Shown here one piece after another: positions 642 through 54,390 of a stretch of DNA of 59,817 bases. The notes beneath the pieces are model-generated. The model was not told the DNA's origin and did not search any database. It was given only the letters and a program-made list of their open reading frames with translations. The DNA lies in the IMG/VR virus record IMGVR_UViG_3300012920_000042, positions 1-59,817 of that record. One strand, 5' to 3'. The translations under genes and the position numbers were made by a program. The DNA comes from a virus. Lineage: Duplodnaviria > Caudoviricetes. Each line of letters opens with the position of its first letter. Position 1 is the stretch's first letter.

Positions 642-709
642 ATACATATTTATCGCTTATCAGTGCCAGGAGTCAAGAATTCTAGTATGTGTTAATAATA
701 AATATAGGC

Positions 710-2012: not shown

Positions 2013-2102
2013 TGGCGGAAAGGGAGAGATTCGAACTCTCGGTACAGTTACCCGTACTCTTCCTTAGCAGGGAAGTGCTTTAAGCCACTCAGCCACCTTT
2101 CC
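2013..2102 (-). tRNA. tRNA-Ser(GCT)
   Basis: Cloverleaf, anticodon arm CTTCC-CTGCTAA-GGAAG, long variable arm, GTTCGAATC, encoded CCA. Confidence 0.95.
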
Positions 2103-2107
2103 AAAAC

Positions 2108-2182
2108 TGGTACCCTGTAGGAGAATCGAACTCCTGTTGCCGGGATGAAAACCCGGTGTCCTCACCACTAGACGAACAGGGC
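2108..2182 (-). tRNA. tRNA-Glu(TTC)
   Basis: Anticodon arm CCGGG-TTTTCAT-CCCGG, GTTCGATTC, encoded CCA. Confidence 0.95.
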
Positions 2183-9896: not shown

Positions 9897-9929
9897 AATT
9901 AATTTTTCCTTTCTTTGATAAATACTACT

Positions 9930-12605
9930 ATGAACCTCAAAGACATAGTAGTATTATCAGAGACACCAGAAGACGAAGCCTTACTGGATAAGGCCGAGTC
10001 TGCATTTGCTCAGGTCAGAGCAACAACCAAAGATATAAAATATGATGATACAGCCATTGAGATATTATCTAAAGTGGGTACTATTGCTGATGAACTAAGT
10101 CAAGAGGAAGTATTGCAAGAACTTGAATACTTAGAAAGAGCAGTATTCGACGCAAAAAACAAATTAGAATCTACAGTATACGGATTAGAAGAACCTTTTG
10201 AGGATTTAATTCGCACACTAAGAAATAAAATCGACGATGAAGAATTAGATCGAGAGTATAACGAAGAAAGTAAATTTGCTCAACCACAACCAAAAGGCAA
10301 AAGCATGTTAGATTTCATGCGTGAGCCTCCGCAAGAAAAGTTCCAATATAAAAAACACGAAAGTCCTTTAACAAACTTTGACAAGTATTTTAAATATTTC
10401 TTAGTTCCAAGAGGACTTAAAGTAGATTATCAAGAAGCATGGAATGACTTTAAAAAGGAATTTGGTCACATGTTTCCTCAAGATGATAATCCAAACTTCA
10501 TGGACGAAACAGCAATGGCAAACCCTGCCTTAGATGCCGAGTTTATTCAGTGGTTAGCAAAGAAAGGTGAAAACAGCCTATTCGCGTATAGATTAGGTGA
10601 TATAGATGACCCTGAGATAATGAACTTATTAAAGCAAGAGTATTATCAAGAGAAAGGACTTTATCCAGGTGATGGTGGTGCTACTGCCACTGATGCCGCA
10701 AAAGCAAGAGCAAAAGCGGCTGGCGATAGTTTACAAACTCACAGTATGCACGAAGATGAAGAAAACATGATTGGCGAGCCTGATGATTACTATGATGCTG
10801 AAGAAAGAAAAGAAGCATACCAAGAACTTAAAGATGCATTACAAGGCAACTACATGGACGACTATATCAAAGTTGGGGCATGTCCTAACTGTGCTGGTAC
10901 TGGTTATCAAGATGCTGAAGATGAAGTATGGGACGATGAAGAAGGCGAGTACGTTGAAGGAAACGAATGTGATGGCTTTGGTAGATACGGTTGTGATGAA
11001 GGTGAAATGATGGGTGCTAGTTGGGTTGACATTGTTAAACATGATGAACGTCAAGCAGAACGTAAAGCATTAAGAGACAAACCACAACCAAGCGACGACT
11101 TGCTGTACAAGTCTGCAAAACATTTACATAAAGAATACGTTATCGACAGAGGTACACATAACGCATTTGAAATAAGCAATTTATTAAGACAGATGTACCC
11201 AGAAATAAGTAAGCCGAAGGCTAGGGAAATAGGTGCTAAAGTGTTAGGTGATTATAAACAAGAAAGTATACAAGAAGGTGTTAAAAGTGAGAAAGCAGTA
11301 AGAATATTAGTAGACATGTTCGATGATGGTCTTGATAATTTTAGCAGTGAAGAAGAATTAGAATCAGCAGTAAGCTCAGAAGCGGGAAGATTAACATACC
11401 AACTAGGCGACTTCGATATAGGTAAAGCAACTGAAGATGCTTTGACTATACTCAGAGACTATAACATGGATGACTATCCAGGCTCCATTGACAGAGATTA
11501 CGATGCTAGATATGAAGATGTAGCACAAGGCTACATAACATTTTCTGATTTTATTAAAAAAGCAAAACAGACTCAAGAATTTAAAGTAATTAGAGATAAA
11601 GAACTTATGCTAAAAGCATATGAACTATTTTCAAAAGGTGTTGCTAAAACACCAGACGAAGCAATTGGTATGGCACAGGCACACATGGATAATATGGCTT
11701 ACGAAGGTAAGTCACCACATAAAAAAGGCACAAAGAAATATAAGAAACACATGGCGGCTATGCATGCCGGTGAAAGTGTATTAAGTGGACCTACAAAGAA
11801 GAATATGAGACTTAAAGAGTTAAGTCCTGCAAGAGATAATAGTGCAAACGAACAGAAAGTTGCTGAACTAATTAAAAAAGCAATCAAAGATCCTAAAGGT
11901 GAAGATGCATATGATTTATATGCAGAACTAGAAAGTGAGAATCCTGAACTTGCTGACTTATACAAAGATGTAGCATTACATCAATACGAAGTTAATCTCG
12001 AAGAAGGCAAAGGTGCAATCAGAGGCGGACTTGCCGCTTTATTGCTTTTACTAGGATTGAATACAGCGAACGAATTCACAAGTGCTAAGAATACACCATT
12101 AGGACAAGACTTAAAAGTAGCGGCACAACAAGCCGGAGAACATGCCGACATTGCTAAGTTTTATTACAAGAACTTAGATCTCTATGTTGAAGAAAACGAC
12201 ATGAGAACATTAGTAAACTTAAAAATAATGTTCGATAATGATGACCCAAGATTCGATCCAGCAAGAGATGATGTTGAAGATTTTCTCAGAAATCAAGCAA
12301 GATTGCCTGAGCCAACTAACGAAAGAAAGTTTAGAGATCAAGGTGTAATGGATGTTGTTACAGACAGAAGAGGCAAAGAGTTTAAGTTTGATAAAGATAG
12401 CAAACAGTTCAAATCATTAGATGGTGAAATAGCAGATCCTAAAACTCCATTAGGTAAAGATTTGATGAGACTTAGAAAAAATCAAATGAAGAGAACAACA
12501 CCAAGTTACAATGCAAAACTTAAAACACCGGGTGGACTTAAAACTGTAAGCAAAGAAGGTTGGAGTCCAGAGCAAGCCGGAAGAAAGTATTGGTGGTCTA
12601 AATAA
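9930..12605 (+). CDS. Large acidic modular protein (putative head-internal polyprotein)
   Basis: Start ATG 9930 at ATAAATA-N5; MNLKDIVVLSE|; CxxCxGxG module; GKSPHKKGTKKYKKHMAAMHA module. Confidence 0.65.
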   Translation: MNLKDIVVLSETPEDEALLDKAESAFAQVRATTKDIKYDDTAIEILSKVGTIADELSQEEVLQELEYLERAVFDAKNKLESTVYGLEEPFEDLIRTLRNKIDDEELDREYNEESKFAQPQPKGKSMLDFMREPPQEKFQYKKHESPLTNFDKYFKYFLVPRGLKVDYQEAWNDFKKEFGHMFPQDDNPNFMDETAMANPALDAEFIQWLAKKGENSLFAYRLGDIDDPEIMNLLKQEYYQEKGLYPGDGGATATDAAKARAKAAGDSLQTHSMHEDEENMIGEPDDYYDAEERKEAYQELKDALQGNYMDDYIKVGACPNCAGTGYQDAEDEVWDDEEGEYVEGNECDGFGRYGCDEGEMMGASWVDIVKHDERQAERKALRDKPQPSDDLLYKSAKHLHKEYVIDRGTHNAFEISNLLRQMYPEISKPKAREIGAKVLGDYKQESIQEGVKSEKAVRILVDMFDDGLDNFSSEEELESAVSSEAGRLTYQLGDFDIGKATEDALTILRDYNMDDYPGSIDRDYDARYEDVAQGYITFSDFIKKAKQTQEFKVIRDKELMLKAYELFSKGVAKTPDEAIGMAQAHMDNMAYEGKSPHKKGTKKYKKHMAAMHAGESVLSGPTKKNMRLKELSPARDNSANEQKVAELIKKAIKDPKGEDAYDLYAELESENPELADLYKDVALHQYEVNLEEGKGAIRGGLAALLLLLGLNTANEFTSAKNTPLGQDLKVAAQQAGEHADIAKFYYKNLDLYVEENDMRTLVNLKIMFDNDDPRFDPARDDVEDFLRNQARLPEPTNERKFRDQGVMDVVTDRRGKEFKFDKDSKQFKSLDGEIADPKTPLGKDLMRLRKNQMKRTTPSYNAKLKTPGGLKTVSKEGWSPEQAGRKYWWSK

Positions 12606-12620
12606 CATATAAATAGTAGC

Positions 12621-13160
12621 ATGTTGCATGTTACTGAATTAGATTACAAAACAAACCCACAACGTTTAAAAGAAGAACTAGATAGTTTACTAGAGGACGT
12701 TGGATTTGCAAATCCTAATCAACTAACACTAACTAGTGTACTTGGTAACAATCAATGGACAGAAAGCACAGGTAAAATACAGCATTTACAATATCCTGAA
12801 AAAGCATACAGCCAAATAAACGAACGTCTCAAAGGCACTTACTTTGAAGAAATCATAAACCAGTTTCCATCATATACACGTTGGAGATTATTAAAATTAC
12901 CTTCCCACAATAACTACAGTATTCATTCTGATAGCGACAATGGTAAAATGAATATTAGATGTCATATACCAGTTGTTACTAATCCTGATGCATACTTGAT
13001 GTTTTTTGATGAAAGAACAAAGCCAAAGATGTATCATTTAGAAGTAGGCAATGCATATGAAGTAAACACAACAGGTTTACATAGTGCAATTAATTTTGGA
13101 TGGCAAGATAGATATCACATAGTTGGAGTAAGATATGAAAATAGCAATAACAGGACATAG
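12621..13160 (+). CDS. Aspartyl/asparaginyl beta-hydroxylase-like 2OG-Fe(II) oxygenase
   Basis: HSD, RCHIPVVTN, HSAIN, DRYH motifs. Confidence 0.8.
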   Translation: MLHVTELDYKTNPQRLKEELDSLLEDVGFANPNQLTLTSVLGNNQWTESTGKIQHLQYPEKAYSQINERLKGTYFEEIINQFPSYTRWRLLKLPSHNNYSIHSDSDNGKMNIRCHIPVVTNPDAYLMFFDERTKPKMYHLEVGNAYEVNTTGLHSAINFGWQDRYHIVGVRYENSNNRT

Positions 13161-13674
13161 TAAAGGCATAGGTAAAGCATTATACGATACTTTGTCTGCT
13201 GAACATGAAGTCGAAGGCTTTAGCAGAAGCAATGGATTTGATATACAGAATACAAACCTCATTGTGAGAGCAGTAAAAGGTTTTGATGTATTTGTAAACA
13301 ATGCTTACTTTGATTTAAAGCAGGTAGACATACTTAATAGTTTATGGCAGAAATGGAAATATGATGAGACTAAAACTATTGTAAACATCAGTAGTATGAG
13401 TAAGTATCCAGGACTCAGTGGAAACGAAACAGGTTATTCTGCACACAAGGCCGCACTATCACATCAAGCATTTTTATTAATGTTTTCTGACAGGCAACGC
13501 AAGTGCAGAATGATAAATGTAAATCCAGGTTATGTAGAAACAAACATGACTTCTAGTAATCATGGAAAAGTAAACATGCTAACACCCGAAGAGAGTGTAC
13601 AGCCGATTGCATTTGCAATAAATCAACCACAACATATAGAAATAGGCGAATTAAGTATCTGGCGACCTTTCTGA
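13135..13674 (+). CDS. Short-chain dehydrogenase/reductase
   Basis: TGHSKGIG, NNA, NISS, YSAHK, NPGYVET. Confidence 0.9.
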   Translation: MKIAITGHSKGIGKALYDTLSAEHEVEGFSRSNGFDIQNTNLIVRAVKGFDVFVNNAYFDLKQVDILNSLWQKWKYDETKTIVNISSMSKYPGLSGNETGYSAHKAALSHQAFLLMFSDRQRKCRMINVNPGYVETNMTSSNHGKVNMLTPEESVQPIAFAINQPQHIEIGELSIWRPF

Positions 13675-13685
13675 TAAATAGTAAT

Positions 13686-16124
13686 ATGAGAAAGGTTATT
13701 ATATATCCAGGAAGATTCCAACCAATGCTACCGCATCATGCGGAAGTGTTTAGGCAACTACAAAGCCAAAATCCAGATGCTGAAGTATATATTGCAACTG
13801 CAAACAAAGTAGAGGCAGGTAAGTCTCCTTTTGATGCACAGGAAAAAATCAGCATCATGACTCAACAGCATGATATTCCAGAAGATAAAATTATAATACC
13901 TGCAGGTAATAATCTATACGCAAAAGACTCGTATATAGATGCTTTTTCACCAGCAGATAAAACTGTATTGATATTTGCAGTAGGTGAAAAGGATATGGAA
14001 TCTGGAGATCCTAGATTTCAGTTCAAACCATTAAAGAATGGTGATCCAAGTTATTTGCAAAAAGCACCTGAAAAGATAAATAGTAATAACGTAACTCACA
14101 TGCTCAAACATGGTTATGTAACAACAGCACCAAATGTACCAGGGGTAGACGGTGAAGTAGCAAGTGCAAGTGCATTTAGAAATGCTTTACTTAGTGCTCC
14201 AGACTTAGAAAGTGCTAAAGAAACATATTCAAAGTTTATGGGTGAGTTCAATCAAGAAATATTTGATTTAGTATACGATAAAATAACAGGTAAAATTATG
14301 AAAGAGAACATCGAAATTTTAAAGAAACTGGCAGGTTTGCTAGATGAAGCGCCTGTTGTTTTCAAACCAGGTAAAGGCGGAATGGACTACGAACCTGGCA
14401 TCAGCAAAAAAGATCAAAAGGCGGCCGCAGAAAGGCCAGCCAAAGCGGCGGCTAGTGATCCTAACACAGTAGGATTTAGCAAAATTGCTCCAGAAGATAT
14501 GATTAGTGTTGACACAGGTAAGCCTATCAACAGTAGACAAAGAGCAAGAAGCATGGCTAATCAGTTCCCAGCAGGTGCTGATGTAAATGATCCAGCAGTT
14601 AAAAAAGAAATGTTCCTCAAACTTTTAGCAACTTCTCCAGGCTATGTGCTTGGTGAAATCAATGCTAGACTGGCAACAGATGATGAAGGATTAGCGGCAA
14701 GTGACAGACTAAGTGGTATTGTAGATAACTTACCAGAAGGTGGTATAATGGCACTCAACGATGAAGATCGTAAATGGACATTATCACTTGTAAACAATGC
14801 AATCAACAACATGGAGTTGGCAAGAAAAGATGCAGAACTAGATAAGTTTGATGATTTAGAAGCAGAGCCTGAGCCAGAAATGGACGAGCCTGAAATGGTA
14901 AGCATGGATGATCCAGAGTTTGATGCTCCAGAAGATGAATTAGAAATGGAAGGCTTAGAAACAAAAGAAATGAAAAACTGTGGTTGTGGACTTAGAGTTT
15001 GCAAGACTACAGGATATGTTGATAAATCATTACCTGAATCAATAGAAGAAGCAGATAAGAAAATAGTATCATTTAAAACAAGTGTTGGTATAATGCCTGG
15101 CTATAGTGATCATACTCCATTAGATTTCCAAGACTATTATGATTGGGAAATGAAAACTTCTAAAGACAAACCAAAAGCAAATATTGTTAGTCAAAGATAC
15201 GGAATATACAAATCAGACTTCCAGGCACATCTAAGCGAAAGTGCAAGACAATTAGCAGAACTTAGAAAACTTTCAGGACTTAATGAAGGTGGCGAATGCT
15301 ATCAATGTGATGGCAATGACGAAGATTGTCCACAATGCAAAGGCACAGGATATGTACAATACGATGACGATCCAAATGAACCAAGTGATGAGGAAATACA
15401 GGCTCATGCAGATGCATATGAAATATACAAGAAGCACAGAGATAAAAAAGAAGAATCTGTAGACTTAACATCTGTTATAGAAGACATTGTTGGTGAAGAT
15501 GATTATGATAATAAATATGATTCAGAACCTACAGTAGGTCAAATGAGTTTTGAAGATTTATGTGATTATTTAAATGTTACACCTGAAGAGTGTGAAATGG
15601 ACATCAAAGACTACTACGATGTTGATGAAGTAACAGACGAAGTAATGGACAAGTACAAAGACGATGTATTAATACCAGCGGCAAATGACGTTAGTATGGA
15701 CCATGCAGAATTTGAATCATTAGAAGAATTTGAAACACCAGTTGTTGATGCACCAGAAGAAGATCCAGATGATTTATTCTTAATTATTGACAAAGAAGGA
15801 AATGAAGTAAAAGCAGGTGCTAAATTACCAACAAATCCACCAGCAACAATTTTAAGTGCAATACCACCTACTAAATTAGATCCAGGTGGGATATTAACAA
15901 CAAATGGTAAATTAGGTATTCCTAATGTGTTTGGTTTTGAAGTTAAGAGAAAAGATCGACCAGAACCGAGACAAGGCGAATTAAATTTACCTAAACCAGA
16001 TCCAAAACAACCAGACTTACCTGGTATGAACCCTAAACAACCAAAAAGCGAAGACATAGATACAGCAATAGATAATGCTTTAGAAGAAACTATGTTAGAA
16101 CTTAAGAAACTAGCAGGATTATAA
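13686..16124 (+). CDS. HIGH-superfamily cytidyltransferase-like domain fused to a long acidic modular tail
   Basis: IIYPGRFQPMLPHH, SPF, AVGEKD, SASAFR in the first ~200 aa; three L-x-x-L-[AS]-G-L motifs in the tail. Confidence 0.75.
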   Translation: MRKVIIYPGRFQPMLPHHAEVFRQLQSQNPDAEVYIATANKVEAGKSPFDAQEKISIMTQQHDIPEDKIIIPAGNNLYAKDSYIDAFSPADKTVLIFAVGEKDMESGDPRFQFKPLKNGDPSYLQKAPEKINSNNVTHMLKHGYVTTAPNVPGVDGEVASASAFRNALLSAPDLESAKETYSKFMGEFNQEIFDLVYDKITGKIMKENIEILKKLAGLLDEAPVVFKPGKGGMDYEPGISKKDQKAAAERPAKAAASDPNTVGFSKIAPEDMISVDTGKPINSRQRARSMANQFPAGADVNDPAVKKEMFLKLLATSPGYVLGEINARLATDDEGLAASDRLSGIVDNLPEGGIMALNDEDRKWTLSLVNNAINNMELARKDAELDKFDDLEAEPEPEMDEPEMVSMDDPEFDAPEDELEMEGLETKEMKNCGCGLRVCKTTGYVDKSLPESIEEADKKIVSFKTSVGIMPGYSDHTPLDFQDYYDWEMKTSKDKPKANIVSQRYGIYKSDFQAHLSESARQLAELRKLSGLNEGGECYQCDGNDEDCPQCKGTGYVQYDDDPNEPSDEEIQAHADAYEIYKKHRDKKEESVDLTSVIEDIVGEDDYDNKYDSEPTVGQMSFEDLCDYLNVTPEECEMDIKDYYDVDEVTDEVMDKYKDDVLIPAANDVSMDHAEFESLEEFETPVVDAPEEDPDDLFLIIDKEGNEVKAGAKLPTNPPATILSAIPPTKLDPGGILTTNGKLGIPNVFGFEVKRKDRPEPRQGELNLPKPDPKQPDLPGMNPKQPKSEDIDTAIDNALEETMLELKKLAGL

Positions 16125-24004: not shown

Positions 24005-24080
24005 TGGTGGAGGTGACAGGGGTCGAACCTGCGACCTTCTGGATGCAAACCAGACGCTCTCCCAACTGAGCTACACCCCC
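24005..24080 (-). tRNA. tRNA-Ala(TGC)
   Basis: Cloverleaf, G3:U70, anticodon arm TCTGG-TTTGCAT-CCAGA, CCA. Confidence 0.95.
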
Positions 24081-24088
24081 ACGGACAA

Positions 24089-24164
24089 TGGAGCTCTGAG
24101 TCAGGTTCGAACTGACGACCTATGGTTTACAAAACCATTGCTCTACCAACTGAGCTATCAGAGC
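24089..24164 (-). tRNA. tRNA-Thr(TGT)
   Basis: Anticodon arm ATGGT-TTTGTAA-ACCAT, GTTCGAACC, CCA. Confidence 0.95.
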
Positions 24165-24915: not shown

Positions 24916-25298
24916 TTCCAATACATATCATACAAATCATACTCTAAGTTATATGCCTCAAACTCTCTTTTAGGGCATGTTACTTCCTCTTTTCTAATAT
25001 GTTGTTTTGCATGTACTAGTTCGTGTGCAAGTGTTACAATAACTTCTTTGTAATCATATGGAGTGTAGTGTTGATTAGGTATTTGAAATCCTTTTGCTAC
25101 TTCTATAACAATGTGTTCATCGTCACCATAGCAACCACCTGCAGAATTATCCTCTAATGATTTAGATATCCTAACTTCTATATCAATTTCTCTTTTTAAT
25201 CTACCTTTAAAAAAATGTTCTAAGCAGTCATGGCAAAATTGTTCTACTTTTCTTTTGTTTCTAATTTGCCCTGAAAGATAGATGTGTATCATTACCAA
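24912..25298 (-). CDS. Putative zincin metallopeptidase
   Basis: TLAHELVHAKQ..EFEA. Confidence 0.75.
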   Translation of the reverse strand: MVMIHIYLSGQIRNKRKVEQFCHDCLEHFFKGRLKREIDIEVRISKSLEDNSAGGCYGDDEHIVIEVAKGFQIPNQHYTPYDYKEVIVTLAHELVHAKQHIRKEEVTCPKREFEAYNLEYDLYDMYWN

Positions 25299-26389
25299 TC
25301 AAAGTTATAAGTATTGCATACTTTTGGTTGACATTCTTGTACACTATTTAGAAGTGCTGTTTCTATTTCTTCATCATCACCGTGAAAAGTTAAGTTGTCT
25401 ACTTTTCTTGATTCTGCTCTTCTATCATAAGGATTGAATAGTTTAGGATTATACCAAGCAGTTTCTTTGGCAATATTCAATAAAGGTATTCTATACCTCT
25501 CATCAAATTCATCAAAGTTTCCTGTATGTGATGCAAGATGAAACTTTAAGTTTTCAAAGCCTGTACGTTTTGCAATAGGAAACAAATATTCAAAATCTTC
25601 AAAAGACTTATAGTAATTTTCTTTGTACCTGTGAGGGTTACGTTTTTGCCCACTTGATACTTGTAAACATTCTCCAAAAGACTCTATTGCATATTTGTTC
25701 TGATAATAACCTGCATACAATATTTCAGGTGTAAGCAAAAATGGATCTTTTATAATGTGCAATCCATGTTGTTGCTCTAAGTTAATAAATGGTGCATTGT
25801 AAATAAAATAAAATGCTGATGTAGAAAATCCTAATGCAACTTTCCTGTCGCCGTCAAAATAAAGTTTACGTTCTAAATAAACTGCACTTTGGTCTTGACT
25901 TACATAAACATATGGTGCCTCACCACCTAGCAAAAGTATTCTATCATTGAATTTAGAATTTTTAATTGCCGCTAATTGTAAAGATATTTGAGGACTGAGT
26001 GTGGCATATTTTCTTGTGTACTCTACTAGATTATTTTCAAAATGATCTCTTGCATCAATGTCCTCATAGTGTAATTCTAAATCTATCTTATCAGCAAACT
26101 GTTGTGCTGTAACTACATCGTCTGTGTTTAGAACTACTCCGTCCCATATAAATCTAAAGCAAACAGCATTCACATCTTTGCAAAATCTTTTTGCCAAGTT
26201 TGCTGAAAACTGGCTGTCAAGTCCTCCGCTCAAACATACAGTGACTCCTTCGAGACTGCCTAACTGTTCTTCAAATAAATCCATTAGGTTAGGTTGGCTA
26301 GGTTTAGTTAAGTAAACATCAGTAGAGCCCGACTCAAAGTCTAGTTCTATTGTTTTTGTGTTGCCGATTGATACAGTTGTATTTTCCAT
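25292..26389 (-). CDS. PP-loop ATP pyrophosphatase / asparagine-synthase-like protein
   Basis: VCLSGGLDSQ, LLGGE, KRTGFE. Confidence 0.6.
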   Translation of the reverse strand: MENTTVSIGNTKTIELDFESGSTDVYLTKPSQPNLMDLFEEQLGSLEGVTVCLSGGLDSQFSANLAKRFCKDVNAVCFRFIWDGVVLNTDDVVTAQQFADKIDLELHYEDIDARDHFENNLVEYTRKYATLSPQISLQLAAIKNSKFNDRILLLGGEAPYVYVSQDQSAVYLERKLYFDGDRKVALGFSTSAFYFIYNAPFINLEQQHGLHIIKDPFLLTPEILYAGYYQNKYAIESFGECLQVSSGQKRNPHRYKENYYKSFEDFEYLFPIAKRTGFENLKFHLASHTGNFDEFDERYRIPLLNIAKETAWYNPKLFNPYDRRAESRKVDNLTFHGDDEEIETALLNSVQECQPKVCNTYNFDW

Positions 26390-26469: not shown

Positions 26470-28029
26470 ATGGCAAGATACTTAGTTAGCATGAATAGTG
26501 CCGATGATACGGCGGCTCAGAGTGCGATTACTACAGCAGGTGCCACCGTTGTTCAAACGTTAGGATTTAACTTAACATATGAAATTGAAGCAACCGAGGC
26601 ACAAAAAGATGCTATAGTTGGTGTAACTGCCAGCCAAGATGCATCGGAATCAGTAACAGTTTCTGTACAAGCGGGAGCCACATTTGCAAAGACTCACTTA
26701 GATAGATGTATTCACTCTTCAGGTGAAAGACCTTGGAATCCAGCAAGAACTGGTGGTGGTAAGTTTGTATACCTAATAGACACAGGTATCAACTCTGCTC
26801 ACGCAGAATTTGACGGAAGACAAATTCAAAACTTATGGACAAACTTCGGAGACGATGATGCAGTAAGTGACTATGGTGATGAAGCAGGACACGGAACAGC
26901 AGTTGCGTCTATGATCATTGGTAAGAATATTGGTTCAGCACCAGATTGTATTTTGCAGAACGTAAAACTGTTTAACAGTAATGGTGGTTCTGTAACAATA
27001 GGTGAAATAATTAATTCTTTAAGTGCTGTACTTGTACACCACAAGGCTAATACACAATCAAATGTAAAATCAGTTTGTCTGCCATGGACAATACCTACTA
27101 ATACATTTGTTGATGCTAAAATTTTAGAAATGAATGCCGCAAACTTAGTTGTTGTAGCGGCGGCGGGTAACGACGGTGTCAATGTTAATACTAAATCTCC
27201 AGCAGGTGTTGACCAAATTGTTACAGTAGGTTCATTTAATTCAGACGAACAAGTAACATCATTTACTAACGCACCATACAGTTCAAGTAATAGTTTTATT
27301 AACTACGGTGCAGAACTTGATATTTTTGCATACGGTGTGAACATTGATGTTGCAGATTATTCAAACGTATCAAACTATGTTGCAAGTACAGGAACAAGTT
27401 TATCAGCAGGACTAGTTGCAGGTATTACTACACATTATGTAGAAAGAGATACATCAGCAACTTCAAGTGAGATTAAAGAAGAAATGCTAATGTCAGGTCA
27501 CGCCACAGGTATTTTCAACTTAACTTTTGATAACTCAGATCCAAATGTAGATTATACAGGTGTTTATAAGTCGGCTATCACAACTAAAAATGTTGACTCA
27601 AGAGTATTAACAACTGTACCATCAGGTAGAATTGCAAACGTTAAATATGGCGATGCGGCTAGTACAGTTGACTTAGGACTTAATTCTAATGCTACAAACA
27701 AGAAAGTATTAGACTTTGCTCCATTACCACCTTGGGTATCAATTGATTTAGATACAGGTATTGTAACTATTGATACAACTGATTCATCTAAGTGCCCGGC
27801 AGATAGAGCACCAGGTATTTACTTGTTTGCTATCAGAGGTAGTGTTGCAGGAACAGGTACTGATACTACAGCGGCAACAATGGTAGAAGAGTTTGCTATA
27901 GGACTTTATGCAAGTAATGTAAGCGAATTAGACATTGATCAAAACCCTAAAACATTCTATTACGATACAGATGACACAACGTACGACGAAGTTGTAAACT
28001 ACGAGAGTGCTTGTTTGTTTAAACCGTAA
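26470..28029 (+). CDS. Subtilisin-like S8 serine protease with propeptide and Ig-like C-terminal domain
   Basis: LIDTG, GHGTAVA, AAAGN, GTSLSA catalytic motifs; LPPWVSIDLDTG. Confidence 0.9.
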   Translation: MARYLVSMNSADDTAAQSAITTAGATVVQTLGFNLTYEIEATEAQKDAIVGVTASQDASESVTVSVQAGATFAKTHLDRCIHSSGERPWNPARTGGGKFVYLIDTGINSAHAEFDGRQIQNLWTNFGDDDAVSDYGDEAGHGTAVASMIIGKNIGSAPDCILQNVKLFNSNGGSVTIGEIINSLSAVLVHHKANTQSNVKSVCLPWTIPTNTFVDAKILEMNAANLVVVAAAGNDGVNVNTKSPAGVDQIVTVGSFNSDEQVTSFTNAPYSSSNSFINYGAELDIFAYGVNIDVADYSNVSNYVASTGTSLSAGLVAGITTHYVERDTSATSSEIKEEMLMSGHATGIFNLTFDNSDPNVDYTGVYKSAITTKNVDSRVLTTVPSGRIANVKYGDAASTVDLGLNSNATNKKVLDFAPLPPWVSIDLDTGIVTIDTTDSSKCPADRAPGIYLFAIRGSVAGTGTDTTAATMVEEFAIGLYASNVSELDIDQNPKTFYYDTDDTTYDEVVNYESACLFKP

Positions 28030-29124: not shown

Positions 29125-29407
29125 GATTTACTATAACAGTAGGCGAACCTGCCATTACAGGATGTATACAAGTAGCCTTAGAAGCCGTCATAACTGTAAC
29201 AGGTTTTCCCATTGCTAATACTCTTAGAGCACAAGAAGTAGGATCTATATTTGGTTTGGCATGCAAGTTCTCACCATGAGGTGTAACTTCGTCTCCTGCA
29301 ACACTTATTGGTGAGCCTTCTACTAAAACAGTAGGTGCACCAGGACCTAATATAATACCACCTGGTCCTGCAAATGAAACTCCAACTTTTCCTGCTCCTG
29401 TAATCAT
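29117..29407 (-). CDS. PAAR-like baseplate spike tip protein
   Basis: TVLVEGSPISVAGD..PH..H, GKPV..ATCIH..GSPTV; likely start ATG 29407 at ATAAATA-N5. Confidence 0.85.
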   Translation of the reverse strand: MITGAGKVGVSFAGPGGIILGPGAPTVLVEGSPISVAGDEVTPHGENLHAKPNIDPTSCALRVLAMGKPVTVMTASKATCIHPVMAGSPTVIVNPK

Positions 29408-29420
29408 ACTATTATTTATC

Positions 29421-29448
29421 AAAGGAAAAGGGACCGAAGTCCCTTTTC
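29421..29448 (-). terminator. Intrinsic terminator with a UUCG loop
   Basis: GAAAAGGGAC-TTCG-GTCCCTTTTCCTTT. Confidence 0.85.
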
Positions 29449-29456
29449 TAGTATCC

Positions 29457-29612
29457 TTAAGGATAGTAAGGATTGTTTGTGATATAGTCAGGTAGTTCGG
29501 TTTTTTCATAGCGAACACCTCTGTAAACATATTCCACAGTTTTGCCTTGATCTTTCTTAAGTTGTTGTTTTACAGCACGTCGAATGAGTGCTTTCTCTTG
29601 ATACTTAGTCAT
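29457..29612 (-). CDS. DUF4278-like small protein, 51 aa (not in ORF track)
   Basis: MTKYQEKALIRRAVKQQLKKDQGKTVEYVYRGVRYEKTELPDYITNNPYYP; YRGV-x-Y motif; AAGGAG SD; followed by a terminator. Confidence 0.8.
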   Translation of the reverse strand: MTKYQEKALIRRAVKQQLKKDQGKTVEYVYRGVRYEKTELPDYITNNPYYP

Positions 29613-29633
29613 ATCATCTCCTTTTACAAAGAT

Positions 29634-29692
29634 GCGTTCCTTCGGATTAATTTCCTACTTCCGTTCACTGCTACATTTAGAGTGAATGAACG
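29634..29692 (-). promoter_or_regulatory. Glutamine-I riboswitch (glnA RNA motif), aptamer 2
   Basis: CGTTCA-[TTCACT..AGTGAA]-CGGAAGTA-[GGA..TCC]-GAAGGAACGC. Confidence 0.88.
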
Positions 29693-29698
29693 AGTTCG

Positions 29699-29748
29699 GC
29701 GTTCCTTCGTCACTTGTTTGACTACTTCCGTCCAATACTGGATGAACG
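29699..29748 (-). promoter_or_regulatory. Glutamine-I riboswitch (glnA RNA motif), aptamer 1
   Basis: CGTTCA-[TCCA..TGGA]-CGGAAGTA-[GTCA..TGAC]-GAAGGAACGC; GATAAATA box at 29756-29763. Confidence 0.88.
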
Positions 29749-29822
29749 TATATATTATTTATCTACAAATATATTGTAAAGCGAAGTAAATGAGGATTAC
29801 TGCTATACCTAGGTGCGTACCA

Positions 29823-38226: not shown

Positions 38227-38991
38227 TTATTGTAGTTTGTTATTAATTATATATTCCGCTATGCGTTTGTGACCGTCTTTATTTGGATGGCATTCATTTG
38301 GTGAGATGTAATCATATTGGTGTATTTGCTGTATAATATCTATATTACTAAGTTCAGATGTATCAACACCACCATCTGGAAAAACATTGTCTCCAAAAAT
38401 TTCTTTTAACATATTTGTGTTTGGATCACACATAAATTTACCATTAGGTACAAAATTAACTTCCGGTAACAAATTAATACCTGTCCATAAAGGAACAACT
38501 CTAAGTTTAATATAGTGAGACTTACAAAAACTCCATATAGCATTTAACATCAAGTTAGCATCAAAATCAGAAAACTCTGGTAGTCCTTTTGATTTTTGAA
38601 AGTCGTGTAAAGGACCAGTTTGGTAATTTTTTATGCCTTGGAAATGATGCCTTTTGTAATTATAGTCAATGCCAAATCCTCTAGTAGATGCTGTTGTTTG
38701 TAACCAAAAAGTATATTCATTTTCTGATTTCATTTTGTTATTATTGTACCAATTGCACATTTGAAAGTATGCAAACTCATAACTGCCACCAGACACAGCA
38801 TAGTTTTCATACTTGTTGCCTCTATGCTTTGTAATTAAGTAAGGATATGCTAAGAAAGGATTCTGTGAATTATCACGTAAATTAGGGATAGTTGTTTTTT
38901 TGTATTCTCGTATCTCTGACGTAGTCAGGTCTAATTGCAGTTCACTACCAATAGTCCAACTGTCACCAAACCATATGTCGACTCTATCCAT
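38227..38991 (-). CDS. SGNH hydrolase-like protein
   Basis: FGDSWTIG, NYAVSGGS, CHPNKDGH; leaderless late start. Confidence 0.75.
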   Translation of the reverse strand: MDRVDIWFGDSWTIGSELQLDLTTSEIREYKKTTIPNLRDNSQNPFLAYPYLITKHRGNKYENYAVSGGSYEFAYFQMCNWYNNNKMKSENEYTFWLQTTASTRGFGIDYNYKRHHFQGIKNYQTGPLHDFQKSKGLPEFSDFDANLMLNAIWSFCKSHYIKLRVVPLWTGINLLPEVNFVPNGKFMCDPNTNMLKEIFGDNVFPDGGVDTSELSNIDIIQQIHQYDYISPNECHPNKDGHKRIAEYIINNKLQ

Positions 38992-39015
38992 ACATATATT
39001 TATATGTACGTTATA

Positions 39016-42076: not shown

Positions 42077-45000
42077 TTATCTTGTTTCCTTGGCTTTGTC
42101 TATAAAGTAATTTGGATTTCTTTGCTTCATTGCCCAAATCATTCTTTTTGCTTTGTCTTCTCCGTGCTTACTAATAAACTTTTGTAATGTACGCCTTTCT
42201 AATTCTTCCGGAGAAATTTGCTTACGCATTTGTGCGTATGCTAAATCTCCTAAACTTTCAATTTGTTTTTTGATGTCGTGTTTTAATTCTTCTTTTTTGG
42301 ATTTTTTCTTGCCTGCTTTCATGTTAGCACACCAGTGATACATCTTGCCACGTTCACCACTATACTTTTTAGCCTTGGCTCTTAAACTGGTAACTGAACC
42401 TTTACAACTTGCACCACTACGTTTTACTCTGCCTGGACGACTTTTGCCTTTCTTTTTGCCGTCAGCAAAGTTTTCGTCTATAATTTCTGCTGGTATTACA
42501 TCTCTGCCAACACGTTTTGCTTGATACACTCTGTGAAAGCCATCAAGTATTGTTTTGCCATCTATATCTATCAGTATTGGTTTATCTAAATCAACACCCA
42601 CATCTGGATCAACATCTATAACTCTTCCGAAACGGTCATCAATTGCCTCGTCATCTAAGTCTGCTACTTTAACTTTGATTAGTTTAGTCTTTTTACCTTT
42701 TATATAATCTTTAACATCAGGATTTAGATTTCTTTCATTTACATTTTTGTAAACACTATACAACACAGGATTATTTTCACAGCCAAGTTCGTCATACGCA
42801 ACACCTCTAACTAATGCTTGTTGTCCTTGTCTGCTATCAAAATCTCTATAAGCATTTGCATACTGATTGTCTATAGACTCATCATCATGCCCATCATTGC
42901 ATTCATCTGTAAATCCTTCGTAGTGTACAATATATTCGCCAACTTTGTCCTTACCAACATCATCTGGTCTTAAACTTTTAACAAACTGTTGTACTTCTGG
43001 CGGAAGTTGTTGATTTTCGTTTATTTCATTTGGATCATCAGGATAATGTCCTGTTGCACTATGATAGTATAATAGTTCTGCGGCATCTGGATAGCCTTCT
43101 GTGTCTATGTAGTTAGGATCTGTAAGTCCTTGTAAAAATACTTCACCATCTTCAAAGTGTTGATTGCCGTAACTGGTCATTATGCGATATTGTTTACCGT
43201 CTGTGCCTTTTATAATTACACCATCTTCTTGATCTACCTGTGCTTGGTTTACCCATTCATCATTGGCTCTGTTTGCTTCTTCTGGTGAGAAGTATGGTTT
43301 TACAGCCTGTGGATTCATGCCCACAACATCTTCCTCTAACTCTGGATGATATTTCATTGTAACTTTTTTAGCATCTTTTTTAATTGATACTCCGTCTACT
43401 AATACTTCTACTGGATAAGTTTTAAACTCATCATACCAATATGCCATATCGTATCCGCCGTCTTCAAGTAATTCTATAAGTACACCTCTGTCGTAATCAT
43501 TATCTTCTGCTTTAAGAACTTTAATTTTACCTCTTGGTAATACTAAGTCTACACCTTCATTGTTTGATTTCTTTTTACTTTTTGGATGATCCTCAGGATT
43601 TTCATGCTCTTTTGTTTTTTTCTTTTTTGGTAATCCTTTGTGCTTTGTTCCTGCAAAGTCTTTGACATCTGAAACTTTCATATCTTTGGCTACTTCACCT
43701 GCTTCTCCGCTTTTAGGCATGTCACCTTTTTGCATAGCTCTTACTACACCAAAGAATTTTTGTTGTTGTTTGCTGACTGCTTTCTCATTATAGATACTTG
43801 CTTTCATTCTTTTCTTGAGGTCTTTTTTACGTTGTGCCAAGTCTGAATCAATGCCTTTCATCAATGCTCGAATATCTTGTGCGGCTTCTATACTTTCGTT
43901 AAGTGTTGCTAGTCTAATAACACCACAACCTAATCTATCTCCAGCATTACCTGTTTTAAGACTTTCTGCATCTCCGCCTTTGCCTAAATCATCTCTGTCA
44001 GCATGTACAATTAATGCTCTACCTACAACACTTCTATCACCGTGTAAGTCTACACGTTTTAGTACTAAACTAACATCTGCAATACCATCTTCATTAGCAA
44101 CTATATTACCTAAGTCCCCCACATGGCCGTTATCTAAATCGCCATGATCCACATTATCTGGATTGTAATGTCCTCCTGCAGTTGTACAGCCATCACTTAA
44201 ATCACCAAATTCGTGTATGTGGAAGCCATGCTCTCCTGGAGTTAAACCTGTTACTCTGCCTACTAATAATGTTGGCTTTCCTGGGTCCTGTCTAAATAAA
44301 AACTGTCCTTCTCCTATTTCGCCTTCAGTGTGTTCAAACTCACACTTAGCAAACACAGTTTTTGTTTGTGCTTCATAAACACCTTTACCAAATTTTACGT
44401 TCGATGACTTTTTCTTTTTCTTCTTTTTCTTTTTCTTAGATTTGCTGTATGCTGGCATAGAACCAATATAATAAAATCCTCTTGCTGGTGCTGGTGTACT
44501 GTCACCACTGTCTGTGCTACCACCTGCATCACTGCTACCTGCAGAGCCACCATCTCCACCAGATGATCCTCCACCGTCTCCACCACCTGCACTTGCACCT
44601 GCTCCAGCACCGCCTCCAGCGGCACCTCCGCCTCCAGCACCACCACCGGCTCCACCTCCGCCGCCTCCGCCGCCTCCGCCGCCTCCGCCGCCACCTTCAG
44701 CATCTAATCTGATGCGTTTTTCTAAGGCAACTTTAAGTTTGCGTTGGAACTCTGCGATTTCGACATCTTCGTCGACAACTGGAGTGTTACTGGTTGTATT
44801 AGGAAACATTTTAATAAGATCTTCTATAGACGCATCAATTATAATTGCTGGAACTACATTTATATCTAGCATTCTAGCGGCATCATATCGATGATGTCCG
44901 TTTACTAAATATCCGTCTTTGTCTAATATGAATGGTTTGTCTTTTCCGTGAAAATCTTGTGCAACTTTTCTTGCAAGTCCTGGTACACGTTGAGTCTGTA

Positions 45001-45163
45001 CAGGTTTGATAGAATCTGTTCGTACTGTGGCTTTGCGAAATTTTAATTTGGATTTTTGAAGGTCAGGTAATTTAAGTTGAGGCATTACATTGCGATCAAA
45101 ATGCTTATCGCCTACATTACTTGGCAATGTACTTGCTATTGCTTCAAATATTGATATTCTCAT
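42077..45163 (-). CDS. Polyprotein-like: ParB/Srx + Gly-rich linker + Cu/Zn SOD + DUF3008-like + acidic modules + ParB/Srx + basic Cys module
   Basis: [10 protein letters not shown]; [29 protein letters not shown]; [22 protein letters not shown]; ILDGFHR. Confidence 0.85.
43910..44371 (-). other. sodC: Cu/Zn superoxide dismutase domain embedded in the polyprotein
   Basis: Metal-ligand His/Asp residues, the disulfide Cys pair and the active-site Arg all recognisable. Confidence 0.92.
44480..44700. repeat. GC-rich low-complexity (CCGCCGCCT)n repeat encoding a poly-Gly/Ala/Ser linker
   Basis: Direct reading of 44560-44700; encodes GGGGGGGGGGGGGGGAGGG... Confidence 0.9.
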
Positions 45164-54378: not shown

Positions 54379-54390
54379 ACTAGTATTTAT

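What the first reader, a model, noticed from the sequence alone, without database searches (positions are those of the whole stretch)
29421..29763. Tandem glutamine riboswitch controlling an unannotated DUF4278-like microprotein under a phage late promoter
Seen: a complete unit of GATAAATA, two aptamers each CGTTCA-hairpin-CGGAAGTA-hairpin-GAAGGAACGC with different but paired stems, a CATCT/AGATG hairpin covering the AAGGAG SD, a 51-aa ORF with YRGVRY, and a UUCG terminator. Established: the glnA motif is the glutamine-I riboswitch, often tandem; in cyanobacteria it controls gifB (glutamine synthetase inactivating factor IF17), and DUF4278 genes are associated with it. Inference: a phage with no cyanobacterial markers in this window senses host glutamine late in infection and tunes nitrogen assimilation through a small protein.
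Basis: partly seen in the sequence, partly recalled or inferred. Interest (0 to 1): 0.86.

Follow-up and report, generated by a model that had tools for sequence, protein, structure and literature searches.

The report
Phage glutamine riboswitch gating microprotein
A large uncultured ocean phage carries a small stand-alone gene in which two glutamine-sensing RNA switches in a row most likely allow a conserved 51-residue protein to be made only when glutamine is plentiful; the RNA class is known, but the protein family is undescribed and is shared with small marine Gammaproteobacteria, not cyanobacteria.

Summary
Observation confirmed. Rfam RF01739 (glutamine-I) matches twice, side by side, on the minus strand (52 and 56.9 bits against a cut-off of 35). 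The pair is followed by a 7-bp hairpin that buries the SD, a 51-aa ORF and a terminator-like hairpin, and is preceded by GATAAATA.

The unit is a conserved cassette. Of 74 loci with enough upstream DNA, 73 have two aptamers. There are 63 distinct proteins, with synonymous variation under an invariant C-terminus.

The protein is not a recognisable DUF4278. One of 63 members hits PF14105, at E 0.08, and YRG occurs in only 19 of 63.

The window is a fragment, about 19%, of a large phage that is not a cyanophage by the markers tested. The same cassette, without the phage box, sits in chromosomes of 0.9-1.8 Mb marine Gammaproteobacteria. There it is the only RF01739 target, and GlnE was not found.

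Glutamine synthetase as the target is inferred. One complex prediction gave weak support: 0.52 against a best control of 0.07.

This scan had already found the same cassette on at least six other genomes. My results agree with those reports.

The parts
29756..29763 (-). GATAAATA, a T4-late-type promoter box about 6 nt upstream of aptamer 1
   Evidence: Sequence; ATAAATA match. In the window, 14 of 29 ATAAATA lie within 60 nt upstream of a co-oriented ORF start, against 5.4% of positions. An NATAAATA box is present in 54 of 58 distinct leaders, and within 45 nt of aptamer 1 in 61 of 70 distinct cassettes. The transcription start and timing were not measured.
29696..29750 (-). Glutamine-I aptamer 1 (short P2, CCAGUAUUGG)
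   Evidence: RF01739, 52.0 bits against a cut-off of 35, model positions 1-53.
29631..29694 (-). Glutamine-I aptamer 2 (long P2, UCACUCUAAAUGUAGCAGUGA)
   Evidence: RF01739, 56.9 bits against a cut-off of 35, model positions 1-53.
29615..29634 (-). Expression platform: hairpin CAUCUUU-GUAAAA-GGAGAUG. It starts at the C that ends aptamer 2 and buries the SD GGAG (29621-29618).
   Evidence: Folds at -6.3 kcal/mol, z -2.5. The pairs covary across 53 leaders: CG 49/UA 3; UA 39/UG 13/CG 1; UG 25/UA 14/CG 14. Variant stems CAUUUUCC/GGAGAAUG and CAAUCU/AGAUUG occur.
29457..29612 (-). 51-aa basic microprotein gene (MTKYQE..., basic helix, YRGVRY, C-terminal LPDYITNNPYYP)
   Evidence: ORF. There are 11 clusters at 75-94% identity, 107 metagenome relatives and 63 distinct proteins. 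The C-terminal residues are invariant while their third codon positions vary. AlphaFold2 gives pLDDT 77.8, with helix 3-22 and a hairpin at 27-36.
29421..29448 (-). Terminator-like hairpin with a UUCG loop and a U-rich tail, directly after the stop codon
   Evidence: Folds at -16.5 kcal/mol, z -2.95. It was not called by the simple scan. Of 54 distinct downstream sequences in the family, 52 have a GC-containing stem of at least 6 bp within 15 nt of the stop, and 44 of 54 also have a U-rich end.

Best explanation
This is a self-contained phage transcription unit. Its parts, in order, are a T4-late-type promoter box, two complete glutamine-I aptamers 1 nt apart, a hairpin that buries the Shine-Dalgarno sequence, a 51-aa basic microprotein gene, and a terminator-like hairpin.

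Proposed mechanism (inferred). Without glutamine, the aptamer's last C and the following AUCUUU pair with GGAGAUG and block ribosome binding. When glutamine binds, that C is taken into the aptamer's long-range G-C pair, the short helix melts, and the SD is freed. This is a translational ON switch, as proposed for the Synechocystis gifB leader. With two aptamers the response should be steeper.

The microprotein belongs to an undescribed family. It has an invariant N-terminus MTKY and an invariant C-terminal motif P.YIT.NP.Y.

The family is shared between large uncultured marine phages and the chromosomes of streamlined marine Gammaproteobacteria. These bacteria are probably the host or donor lineage (inferred). 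An earlier report of this scan and one paper point to SAR86; I did not name the genomes myself.

The protein's target is not shown. My leading guess, at about 25-30%, is that it binds the host's glutamine synthetase or another nitrogen-assimilation protein. That would make it a functional analogue, not a homologue, of cyanobacterial IF7/IF17.
For: RNA:
- Two RF01739 matches above the cut-off.
- Compensatory variation in P2 (32 of 32 distinct sequences) and P3 (42 of 42).
- The SD hairpin is predicted in the window, covaries, and is present in the ensemble of 53 of 53 leaders, or 43 of 53 when 60 nt of coding sequence are added.
- Passages of Klahn 2018 (PMC6212724) describe the same logic: the conserved C and the nucleotides after it pair with the RBS, and glutamine binding is postulated to melt that helix. 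IF17 synthesis needs an intact aptamer.

Cassette:
- 73 of 74 loci have two aptamers.
- 4 of 4 related IMG/VR contigs have tandem RF01739 directly upstream.

Gene:
- Synonymous variation under invariant residues.
- 29 clusters at the 50% identity level.

Phage:
- The window is an IMG/VR virus record, 19% complete. Related records are 5-27% complete at 17.7-97 kb.
- It encodes PAAR, nrdA/B, glutaredoxin, a virion protein and a tail-fibre-like domain.

Host link:
- L007, L045 and L079 carry the gene beside tRNA-Ile, pssA and ilvC/H/I.
- 6 of 61 relatives of that genome have it.
- In 5 of 5 of these the tandem pair is the only RF01739 above the cut-off.
- The 8 chromosomal cassettes lack the phage box and form one group (100/98 support) apart from 61 box-bearing ones.
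- GC is 36% in the window against 37-38% in the chromosomal loci.

Nitrogen link:
- In more distant relatives RF01739 precedes a glutamine synthetase gene, confirmed by Pfam.
- GS family 5 of 5, PII 5 of 5, GlnE 0 of 5.
- Complex prediction of the microprotein with two copies of the 323-aa GS of G037: weak support. The score was 0.52 (runs 0.01, 0.53, 0.52) against a best control of 0.07. The mark was reached by 58 of 80 solved complexes and 2 of 110 mismatches, but at 0.60 or under by only 7 of those 80 and by both mismatches. Partner pLDDT was at least 38, and the runs agree in at least 34% of contacts.
Against: - No ligand binding, transcription start, translation or protein target was measured.
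- The complex score is in the band that the tool calls 'more often wrong than right unless the guess was likely beforehand'. One of the three runs scored 0.01.
- The GS came from a relative of the presumed host, not from a proven host.
- The microprotein has no detectable similarity to IF7/IF17 or DUF4278, to any PHROG, to any ESM Atlas cluster or to any PDB fold.
- PII is present in these bacteria and is an equally plausible target.
- The host assignment rests on a shared cassette and on composition only. The direction of transfer is not resolved, because the tree is unrooted.
- The P1 strands of the two aptamers are identical. RNAalifold pairs them crosswise, so the fold of the ligand-free RNA is uncertain.
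- The simple scan does not call the terminator.
- ATAAATA is not over-represented in the window as a whole: 29 against 26.5 expected.
Confidence: 0.62

Rival explanations
1. One reading: the peptide is a DUF4278/IF17-type protein, a homologue of the cyanobacterial glutamine synthetase inactivating factor, carried by a phage.
For: - The window protein has YRGVRY, predicted as a beta-hairpin.
- In cyanobacteria the glnA aptamer lies upstream of DUF4278 genes in 25 of 28 genomes (PMC6212724, passages).
- In one gammaproteobacterial relative (G063, locus L122) a tandem RF01739 precedes a 54-aa protein with three YRGT repeats. It scores 23 bits, E 1e-4, on PF14105, just under the 25.3-bit cut-off.
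Against: - PF14105: no hit for the window protein at E<=1 or in six frames. Only 1 of 63 members hits it, at E 0.08, no better than chance hits to unrelated families.
- The profile search returned no DUF4278 protein.
- YRG occurs in only 19 of 63 members, whereas the invariant parts are MTKY and P.YIT.NP.Y.
- No cyanophage marker was found.
Confidence: 0.08
2. The riboswitch works as described, but the microprotein acts on something other than glutamine synthetase. Candidates are PII (GlnK/GlnB), the NtrB-like kinase, an ammonium or amino-acid transporter, or a phage process for which glutamine serves as a read-out of the cell's state late in infection.
For: - PII genes are present in 5 of 5 cassette-bearing genomes, two copies in 4 of them.
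- An NtrB-like kinase gene (by eye) lies beside the 323-aa GS gene.
- In relatives RF01739 also precedes outer-membrane (Gcw_chp) genes and other genes.
- The strictly conserved C-terminal motif looks like a short docking peptide (inference).
- The GS complex prediction is only weak.
Against: - No test of any of these partners was run; only one complex job was allowed.
- The parallel with cyanobacteria points to GS: both lack GlnE, and in both the riboswitch's sole target is a small protein (PMC6212724).
Confidence: 0.3
3. The switch is an OFF switch or acts on transcription, not a translational ON switch.
For: Riboswitches of one class can be wired either way (general knowledge). In relatives where RF01739 precedes GS or porin-like genes, the sequence after the aptamer is a different hairpin, GUUAAAC...GUUUAAC.
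Against: - In this cassette there is no terminator-like hairpin between aptamer 2 and the ORF. The 20 nt in between are the SD hairpin itself.
- The hairpin's 5' strand starts at the aptamer's ligand-dependent C, as in the gifB ON switch.
- The arrangement is kept in 53 of 53 leaders.
Confidence: 0.07
4. The ORF is incidental and the RNA itself is the product, for instance a glutamine-binding decoy or an sRNA.
For: The aptamers are more conserved than the middle of the peptide.
Against: - The residues Y-I-T-D-N-P-F/Y-Y-P are invariant or nearly so, while their third codon positions vary: ATC/ATA/ATT, GAC/GAT, CCT/CCG, TTC/TTT.
- The length varies in whole codons, from 46 to 56 aa.
- The start codon and SD are always present.
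Confidence: 0.03

Closest known systems
Type-1 glutamine riboswitch in the Synechocystis gifB (IF17) leader (Klahn et al. 2018, PMC6212724; passages read)
   Same: - The aptamer family is the same (RF01739).
- The conserved C at the aptamer's 3' end and the nucleotides after it pair with the ribosome binding site.
- The switch controls a small protein.
- It is the main or only riboswitch target in the genome.
- The organism lacks GlnE (for cyanobacteria this is recalled).
   Different: - Here there are two aptamers, not one.
- The promoter is a phage box, not an NtcA-controlled promoter.
- The product is not DUF4278 by HMM.
- The carriers are large marine phages and Gammaproteobacteria, not cyanobacteria.
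Glutamine riboswitches annotated in T4-like cyanophages (S-CREM1, PMC9964418, passages and Table 4; McCown et al. 2017, PMC5473149, passage: two aptamers in two cyanophage genomes)
   Same: RF01739 carried on a phage genome.
   Different: - Those are cyanophages with single annotated matches (S-CREM1: 44 bits) and no described downstream gene.
- This cassette found nothing in GenBank phages: megablast-distant and tblastn gave no match or only short chance-level pieces.
- Table S7 of PMC9964418 could not be read because supplements are closed.
Glutamine riboswitch of OM43 phage Melnitz and of pelagimyophage contigs (Buchholz et al. 2022, PMC9004378; passages)
   Same: A marine phage of a streamlined heterotroph that carries a glnA-type riboswitch, where the authors argue the phage regulates its own genes.
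   Different: There the riboswitch is described as part of, or next to, a two-piece tmRNA gene, and the host lacks glutamine riboswitches. Here it fronts a conserved microprotein gene that also occurs, with its riboswitch, in bacterial chromosomes. I did not examine the Melnitz sequence.
GS inactivating factors IF7/IF17 of cyanobacteria (PMC7760959 and PMC6212724, passages)
   Same: A small basic protein whose synthesis is gated by glutamine, in organisms without GS adenylylation. There is weak in-silico support for contact with GS.
   Different: No sequence similarity was found, and the conserved parts differ (MTKY... and ...YITDNPFYP). The GS tested is a short 323-aa form, not the GSI of Synechocystis. 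The function is untested.
Tandem riboswitch aptamers (Weinberg et al. [quoted passage not shown]
   Same: Two complete aptamers of one class ahead of one expression platform.
   Different: - Cooperativity is untested.
- In 28 of 53 leaders the linker repeats the anti-SD CAUCU. In the window it is CCGAACU.
- The two P1 helices are identical, so strand swapping is possible.

Membership tests
Glutamine-I riboswitch (glnA RNA, Rfam RF01739) | Covariance-model score at or above the curated gathering score of 35 bits over the full model | tested here: met
   52.0 and 56.9 bits, model positions 1-53 of 53 for both.
Glutamine-I riboswitch (glnA RNA, Rfam RF01739) | Three-stem architecture (P1, P2, P3) with invariant joining sequences CGUUCA, CGGAAGUA and GAAGGAACG, supported by compensatory changes | tested here: met
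   The core is invariant in 53 leaders. All 32 distinct P2 and all 42 distinct P3 sequences keep at least 3 closing pairs. P1 never varies, so it says nothing either way.
Glutamine-I riboswitch (glnA RNA, Rfam RF01739) | Selective binding of L-glutamine | not testable with these tools
   Needs in-line probing, ITC or a reporter.
Tandem (two-aptamer) riboswitch | Two complete aptamers of one class on one leader with a single expression platform | tested here: met
   The aptamers are 1 nt apart in the window. 73 of 74 loci have two. One SD hairpin follows aptamer 2.
Tandem (two-aptamer) riboswitch | Cooperative or steeper ligand response | not testable with these tools
   No assay was possible.
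DUF4278 / IF17-like proteins (Pfam PF14105) | Match to the PF14105 HMM at or above 25.3 bits | tested here: not met
   The window protein has no hit at E<=1, and the six-frame search found 0. Of 63 members, 0 are significant; the best is E 0.08 in one member.
DUF4278 / IF17-like proteins (Pfam PF14105) | YRG motif (recalled as the family's hallmark) | tested here: inconclusive
   It is present once in the window protein but in only 19 of 63 family members. It is not part of the family's invariant core.
DUF4278 / IF17-like proteins (Pfam PF14105) | Inhibition of glutamine synthetase through a C-terminal IF7-like region | not testable with these tools
   There is only a weak complex prediction with a 323-aa GS (0.52 against a best control of 0.07). 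No sequence similarity to IF7/IF17 was detected.
T4-type late promoter | TATAAATA-like box a few nucleotides upstream of the transcript start, recurring ahead of phage genes | tested here: met
   GATAAATA lies 6 nt before aptamer 1. 14 of 29 ATAAATA in the window lie within 60 nt upstream of co-oriented ORF starts, against 5.4% of positions, binomial P about 6e-11. The box occurs in 61 of 70 distinct cassettes. AT-rich intergenic DNA inflates this test.
T4-type late promoter | Late timing and dependence on a gp55-type sigma factor | not tested
   No gp55 search was made and no transcript data exist. The metatranscriptome material was contigs only.
Phage auxiliary gene (moron) taken from or shared with the host | Own promoter and terminator, variable position in phage genomes, and a homologue in cellular chromosomes | tested here: met
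   The box and terminator-like hairpin flank the unit. The neighbours differ among loci: nrd genes lie nearby in only 4. Chromosomal copies lie beside tRNA-Ile, pssA and ilvC.

The most novel reading that the evidence does not exclude
The microprotein is a non-homologous counterpart of cyanobacterial IF7/IF17. It would be a glutamine-induced peptide that docks, through its invariant C-terminal P.YIT.NP.Y motif, onto the short glutamine synthetase of GlnE-less, streamlined marine Gammaproteobacteria. Giant phages of these bacteria would have captured the whole sensor-plus-effector unit and rewired it to their late promoter, so as to control host glutamine synthesis during virion production. This would be a second, independent invention of 'riboswitch plus inactivating peptide' control of GS, and a first host link for an abundant group of uncultured large marine phages.
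Probability: 0.2. Interest if true: 0.8.

Novelty: new variant of a known kind. Interest (0 to 1): 0.58.

Why it matters
Riboswitches are regarded as rare in phages. McCown et al. 2017 found only two glutamine aptamers, in two cyanophages (PMC5473149, passage).

Here a complete sensor-to-effector unit is conserved in more than a hundred marine metagenome loci and on large phage contigs. Its product is a protein family that none of my six literature searches found described. I searched for glutamine riboswitch with cyanophage, with jumbo, and with SAR86; for glnA RNA with Downstream-peptide and phage; for RF01739 with phage; and for 'selectively bind glutamine'.

The finding gives three testable things:
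- a peptide that may regulate nitrogen assimilation in abundant uncultured Gammaproteobacteria that lack GlnE;
- a natural tandem glutamine switch with many sequence variants for studying two-aptamer logic;
- a sequence link between large uncultured phages and a candidate host lineage.

Tried and rejected
**Searches that found nothing**

- GenBank phages. The 1.1-kb region by blastn found nothing. The window peptide by tblastn at E<=1 found nothing. Another family member at E<=10 gave one chance hit. A relative's cassette by blastn at E<=10 gave only pieces of 23-34 nt. The tool warns that records near the window may be left out.
- PHROGs had no family for the peptide. The ESM Atlas had no usable hit. 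Foldseek against the PDB had no match at E<=0.001.
- The Gp23 Pfam model hit none of 5 virus records, but its control rang nowhere, so this says nothing.

**Ideas dropped**

- *A fixed genome position for the cassette.* Rejected: the window's neighbours recur in few loci (PAAR 0, orf346 0, nrdB 3, nrdC 2).
- *A second lock, in which aptamer 1's UAGUCA pairs with the start region UGACUA.* This was suggested by the MFE fold and by the near-invariance of codons 2 and 4 at synonymous sites. The helix appears in 48 of 53 leaders that end 12 nt into the ORF. With 60 nt of coding sequence it appears in only 24 of 53, and in the window it falls to 0.1 expected pairs. There is no covariation. I kept it only as a lead.
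- *N-terminal MTKYQE as a T4 IPIII-like capsid-targeting tag.* The resemblance is recalled.
- *A fused form of the family.* The only long hit, P0038 (1246 aa), is a repeat translation artefact.

**Methods that misled**

- RNAalifold on the MAFFT alignment paired the outer and inner P1 strands crosswise, because the strands are identical. I therefore counted P2 and P3 by a script instead.
- My first terminator count used a poor rule and gave 20 of 55. I replaced it.

**Sequencing runs**

- Twenty rows from 11 studies of marine, seawater or estuary metagenomes hold part of the stretch.
- When laid, RNA-library contigs of one study cover only 29596-29688 at about 90% likeness and then run on into unlike sequence. 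They therefore come from relatives' cassettes. One 152-nt contig covers 29775-29919.
- All were contigs, DNA may be present in such libraries, and nothing can be said about transcription, starts or the uncovered parts.

**Papers**

- Ames and Breaker 2011 is not held; what I say of it is recalled.
- Supplements were closed. Three could bear on my statements about what has been described, and I did not see them: Klahn 2018 Tables S1/S2, PMC9964418 Table S7 and PMC12379486 Table S5.
Full report
**1. What is there**

Rfam's glutamine-I model RF01739 matches twice, at 29750-29696 (52.0 bits) and 29694-29631 (56.9 bits). The gathering score is 35, and both matches cover all 53 model positions. The E-values for the whole window are 1.4e-8 and 6.3e-10. 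These are the only such matches in the record.

GATAAATA (29763-29756) ends 6 nt before aptamer 1.

Directly after aptamer 2 the sequence CAUCUUU-GUAAAA-GGAGAUG folds into a 7-bp hairpin (29634-29615). It folds at -6.3 kcal/mol with z -2.5, and 4 of 200 shuffles fold as well. The hairpin contains the GGAG of the SD. The AUG follows at 29612.

The ORF (29612-29457) encodes 51 residues, MTKYQEKALIRRAVKQQLKKDQGKTVEYVYRGVRYEKTELPDYITNNPYYP.

A hairpin with a UUCG loop (29448-29425; -16.5 kcal/mol, z -2.95) follows the stop codon. It is followed in turn by CUUU and then by the next GATAAATA box and the PAAR gene. The simple consensus scan did not call this hairpin a terminator.

**2. It is a conserved cassette with a real gene**

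- The peptide has 11 close clusters in the protein collection, at 75-94% identity.
- It has 4 relatives on IMG/VR contigs and 107 on metagenome contigs, of which 80 were kept.
- All 4 IMG/VR loci have two RF01739 matches directly upstream, at 49-62 bits.
- By a motif script, 73 of 74 loci (window included) with at least 200 nt upstream and an MTKY ORF have two aptamers, and one has a single aptamer. Five further loci were cut too short, and seven did not fit the ORF pattern because they were cut or start with MTNQ.
- Among 79 coding sequences there are 66 distinct DNAs and 63 distinct proteins.
- The last nine residues are invariant or nearly so, while their third codon positions vary freely.
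- Lengths run from 46 to 56 aa in whole codons, and net charge from +4 to +9.
- The invariant columns are M1, T2, K3, Y4, R12, P41, Y43, I44, T45, N47, P48 and Y50.
- AlphaFold2 with this alignment gives pLDDT 77.8: a confident helix at 3-22, a less confident hairpin at 27-36 around YRG, and a short turn at the end.

**3. RNA structure**

In an alignment of 53 distinct leaders the aptamer cores are invariant. All 32 distinct P2 and all 42 distinct P3 sequences keep at least three closing pairs, with many compensatory forms such as UCUC/GAGA, UCUG/CAGA, UCCU/AGGA, CCCA/UGGG, GUC/GAC, GAC/GUC and GGU/ACC.

The SD hairpin covaries: CG 49/UA 3, UA 39/UG 13/CG 1, and UG 25/UA 14/CG 14. Whole-stem variants such as CAUUUUCC/GGAGAAUG and CAAUCU/AGAUUG also occur. 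The hairpin is present in the thermodynamic ensemble of 53 of 53 leaders, and of 43 of 53 when 60 nt of coding sequence are added.

The hairpin's first base is the C that ends the aptamer. For the Synechocystis gifB leader, Klahn et al. report three things (PMC6212724, passages):
- this C and the nucleotides after it can pair with the ribosome binding site;
- glutamine binding is postulated to melt that helix;
- IF17 is not made when the aptamer is disrupted.

I therefore read the cassette as a translational ON switch. That reading is inferred, not shown.

What the first aptamer adds is open. In 28 of 53 leaders the linker repeats the anti-SD CAUCU, whereas in the window it is CCGAACU. The two P1 helices are identical, so a crosswise fold is possible.

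A terminator-like hairpin follows the stop codon in 52 of 54 distinct downstream sequences, and 44 of the 54 also have a U-rich end.

**4. Promoter**

ATAAATA is not more frequent in the window than in shuffles: 29 against 26.5. However, 14 of the 29 lie within 60 nt upstream of a co-oriented ORF start, where only 5.4% of positions lie (binomial P about 6e-11). AT-rich spacers inflate this figure.

An NATAAATA box precedes aptamer 1 within 45 nt in 61 of 70 distinct cassettes. In many relatives a small hairpin (UGUAAC...GUUACA, with covarying variants) sits between the box and aptamer 1. The window lacks it.

That the box resembles the T4 late promoter is from established knowledge. Timing was not measured.

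**5. What carries it**

The window is an IMG/VR virus record judged 19% complete. The four related records are 5-27% complete at 17.7-97 kb, which implies genomes of roughly 315-370 kb if CheckV is right.

The window encodes the following:
- nrdA, whose best tblastn hits, at 58-62% identity, are Stenotrophomonas, Xanthomonas and Escherichia jumbo phages;
- nrdB and glutaredoxin;
- a PAAR protein;
- a virion structural protein, a protease and an endonuclease;
- a tail-fibre-type N-terminal domain;
- four tRNAs.

psbA was found in none of the five records. GC is 36%. The cassette's neighbours differ among loci, so it behaves as an independent unit.

**6. The cellular counterpart**

The single hit in species-representative genomes (L007) is titled as an uncultured Gammaproteobacteria MAG. 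It lies beside tRNA-Ile(GAU), pssA, ilvC, ilvH and ilvI. Metagenome loci L045, L079 and L044 share that context, and L064 has another bacterial context.

- These copies encode a 46-aa form and have the same two aptamers and SD hairpin, but no NATAAATA box.
- Of 61 relatives of that genome (0.9-1.8 Mb), 6 have the gene.
- In 5 of 5 examined, the tandem pair in front of it is the only RF01739 match above the cut-off.
- In a tree of 70 distinct cassettes, the 8 chromosomal ones form one group (100/98 support) apart from the box-bearing ones. The ninth box-less row, L008, is of the phage type. The tree is unrooted, so the direction of transfer is open.

RF01739 is above the cut-off in 24 of the 61 genomes. 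I fetched 20 places in the more distant ones and applied a simple rule for the first ORF after the aptamer. The downstream genes were:
- a Gcw_chp outer-membrane family protein (6 places; one checked by Pfam);
- a 326-aa glutamine synthetase (3 places, one truncated; one checked by Pfam);
- proteins that look by eye like glutamate synthase, a TonB-dependent receptor and an ATP-grasp enzyme (one each, not checked);
- other microproteins (4 places);
- nothing found by my simple rule (4 places).

One of those microproteins (L122) has three YRGT repeats and scores 23 bits, E 1e-4, on DUF4278, just under the cut-off.

One paper reports RF01739 inside structural variants of SAR86 genomes (PMC12379486, passage). 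An earlier report of this scan names SAR86. I did not classify the genomes myself.

**7. Function of the peptide**

It is not a recognisable DUF4278, and YRG occurs in 19 of 63 members only. No PHROG, Atlas or PDB relative was found.

The context suggests nitrogen control:
- The cassette-bearing genomes have GS-family genes: 5 of 5 have a 323-327-aa form, which in G037 lies next to an NtrB-like kinase gene (by eye), and 3 of 5 also have a 464-471-aa form.
- They have PII (5 of 5).
- No GlnE was found (0 of 5). The control rang in E. coli, Caulobacter and Corynebacterium.
- The genomes may be incomplete, although G020's matches lie on a contig of at least 1.57 Mb.

This parallels cyanobacteria, where a glutamine riboswitch gates a small GS inhibitor.

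I ran one complex prediction, of the window peptide (as alignment A3) with two copies of the 323-aa GS of G037. It returned 'weak support':
- The score was 0.52 (runs 0.01, 0.53, 0.52) against a best control of 0.07.
- The mark was reached by 58 of 80 solved complexes and 2 of 110 mismatched pairs. At 0.60 or under it was reached by only 7 of those 80 and by both mismatches.
- Partner pLDDT was at least 38, and contact agreement at least 34%.
- My own alignment and a three-chain job differ from the calibration.

I take this as a lead, not a finding, and put GS or another nitrogen-assimilation protein at about 25-30%.

**8. Comparison and novelty**

The aptamer class, its tandem form, its ON logic and its presence in some phages are all in print:
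- PMC2864571, section 'glnA and Downstream-peptide motifs';
- PMC6212724;
- PMC5473149;
- PMC9964418;
- PMC9004378.

My six literature searches did not find any of the following: this peptide family, its cassette in large non-cyano phages, or the chromosomal counterpart in Gammaproteobacteria. Supplements were closed, and Ames and Breaker 2011 is not held.

Within this scan the same cassette had already been reported on at least six other genomes, with matching conclusions. Cyanophage cassettes with nested aptamers are a different arrangement.

I file it as a new variant of a known kind.

**9. Verdict**

- Confidence is about 0.9 for the RNA and gene architecture, about 0.7 for the ON switch, about 0.6 for the gammaproteobacterial link, and about 0.25 for the GS target.

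Noticed in passing
window 641-710, 9918-9930, 12609-12621, 13674-13686, 29407-29419, 38991-39003, 54378-54390: ATAAATA boxes stand only about 5 nt before the ATG of several genes. My count shows that the box is concentrated just upstream of ORF starts (14 of 29).
   Followed up: partly
window 29655-29677 (minus strand); L003-L087 aptamers: A conserved P2 insert, UUCACUCUAAAUGUAGCAGUGAA, is the commonest P2 sequence (58 aptamer copies). It sits in aptamer 2 in the window but in aptamer 1 in most relatives, and in both in some. Its loop sequence is conserved and its role is unknown.
   Followed up: no
L003, L005, L006 and many others, between the box and aptamer 1: A 5' hairpin (UGUAAC-loop-GUUACA, with the covarying variant GAGUAA/UUACUC) starts about 5 nt after the promoter box in most relatives but is absent from the window's leader. 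It may be a 5'-end stabiliser.
   Followed up: no
window 29601-29612 (minus strand) and all family members: Codons 2 and 4 are almost invariant at their synonymous sites: ACT in 65 of 66 and TAT in 65 of 66. The same amino acids near the C-terminus use several codons. Pairing with aptamer 1's UAGUCA is one explanation, but it is not robust.
   Followed up: partly
L129 1195-2166 (G037) and L110, L120: The short 323-326-aa glutamine synthetase of these Gammaproteobacteria starts MTKYEYIWLDG, or MSDIKTYEYIWLDG where a glutamine riboswitch precedes it. The first five residues are the same as those of the chromosomal microprotein (MTKYEE...). This may be coincidence or a trace of common origin.
   Followed up: no
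G044-G065, loci L105-L124: In streamlined marine Gammaproteobacteria RF01739 precedes a varied set of genes: GS, a Gcw_chp outer-membrane protein, and putative GOGAT, TonB receptor and ATP-grasp genes. It also precedes at least three other microprotein types, one of them nearly DUF4278. The GS-like ORF at L112 stops after 116 aa.
   Followed up: partly
window 42077-45163 (minus strand): A 1028-aa protein combines ParB-like and Cu/Zn superoxide dismutase-like PHROG matches.
   Followed up: no
window 25292-26389 (minus strand) and 26470-28029 (plus strand): Just upstream of the cassette region lie a PP-loop ATPase with weak Asn-synthase and NAD-synthase matches and a subtilisin-type protease (phrog_3677). 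The former family includes glutamine-dependent amidotransferases (recalled).
   Followed up: no
window 2016-2182 and 24008-24164 (minus strand): Two pairs of tRNA genes, at 62-73 bits. I did not determine their anticodons.
   Followed up: no
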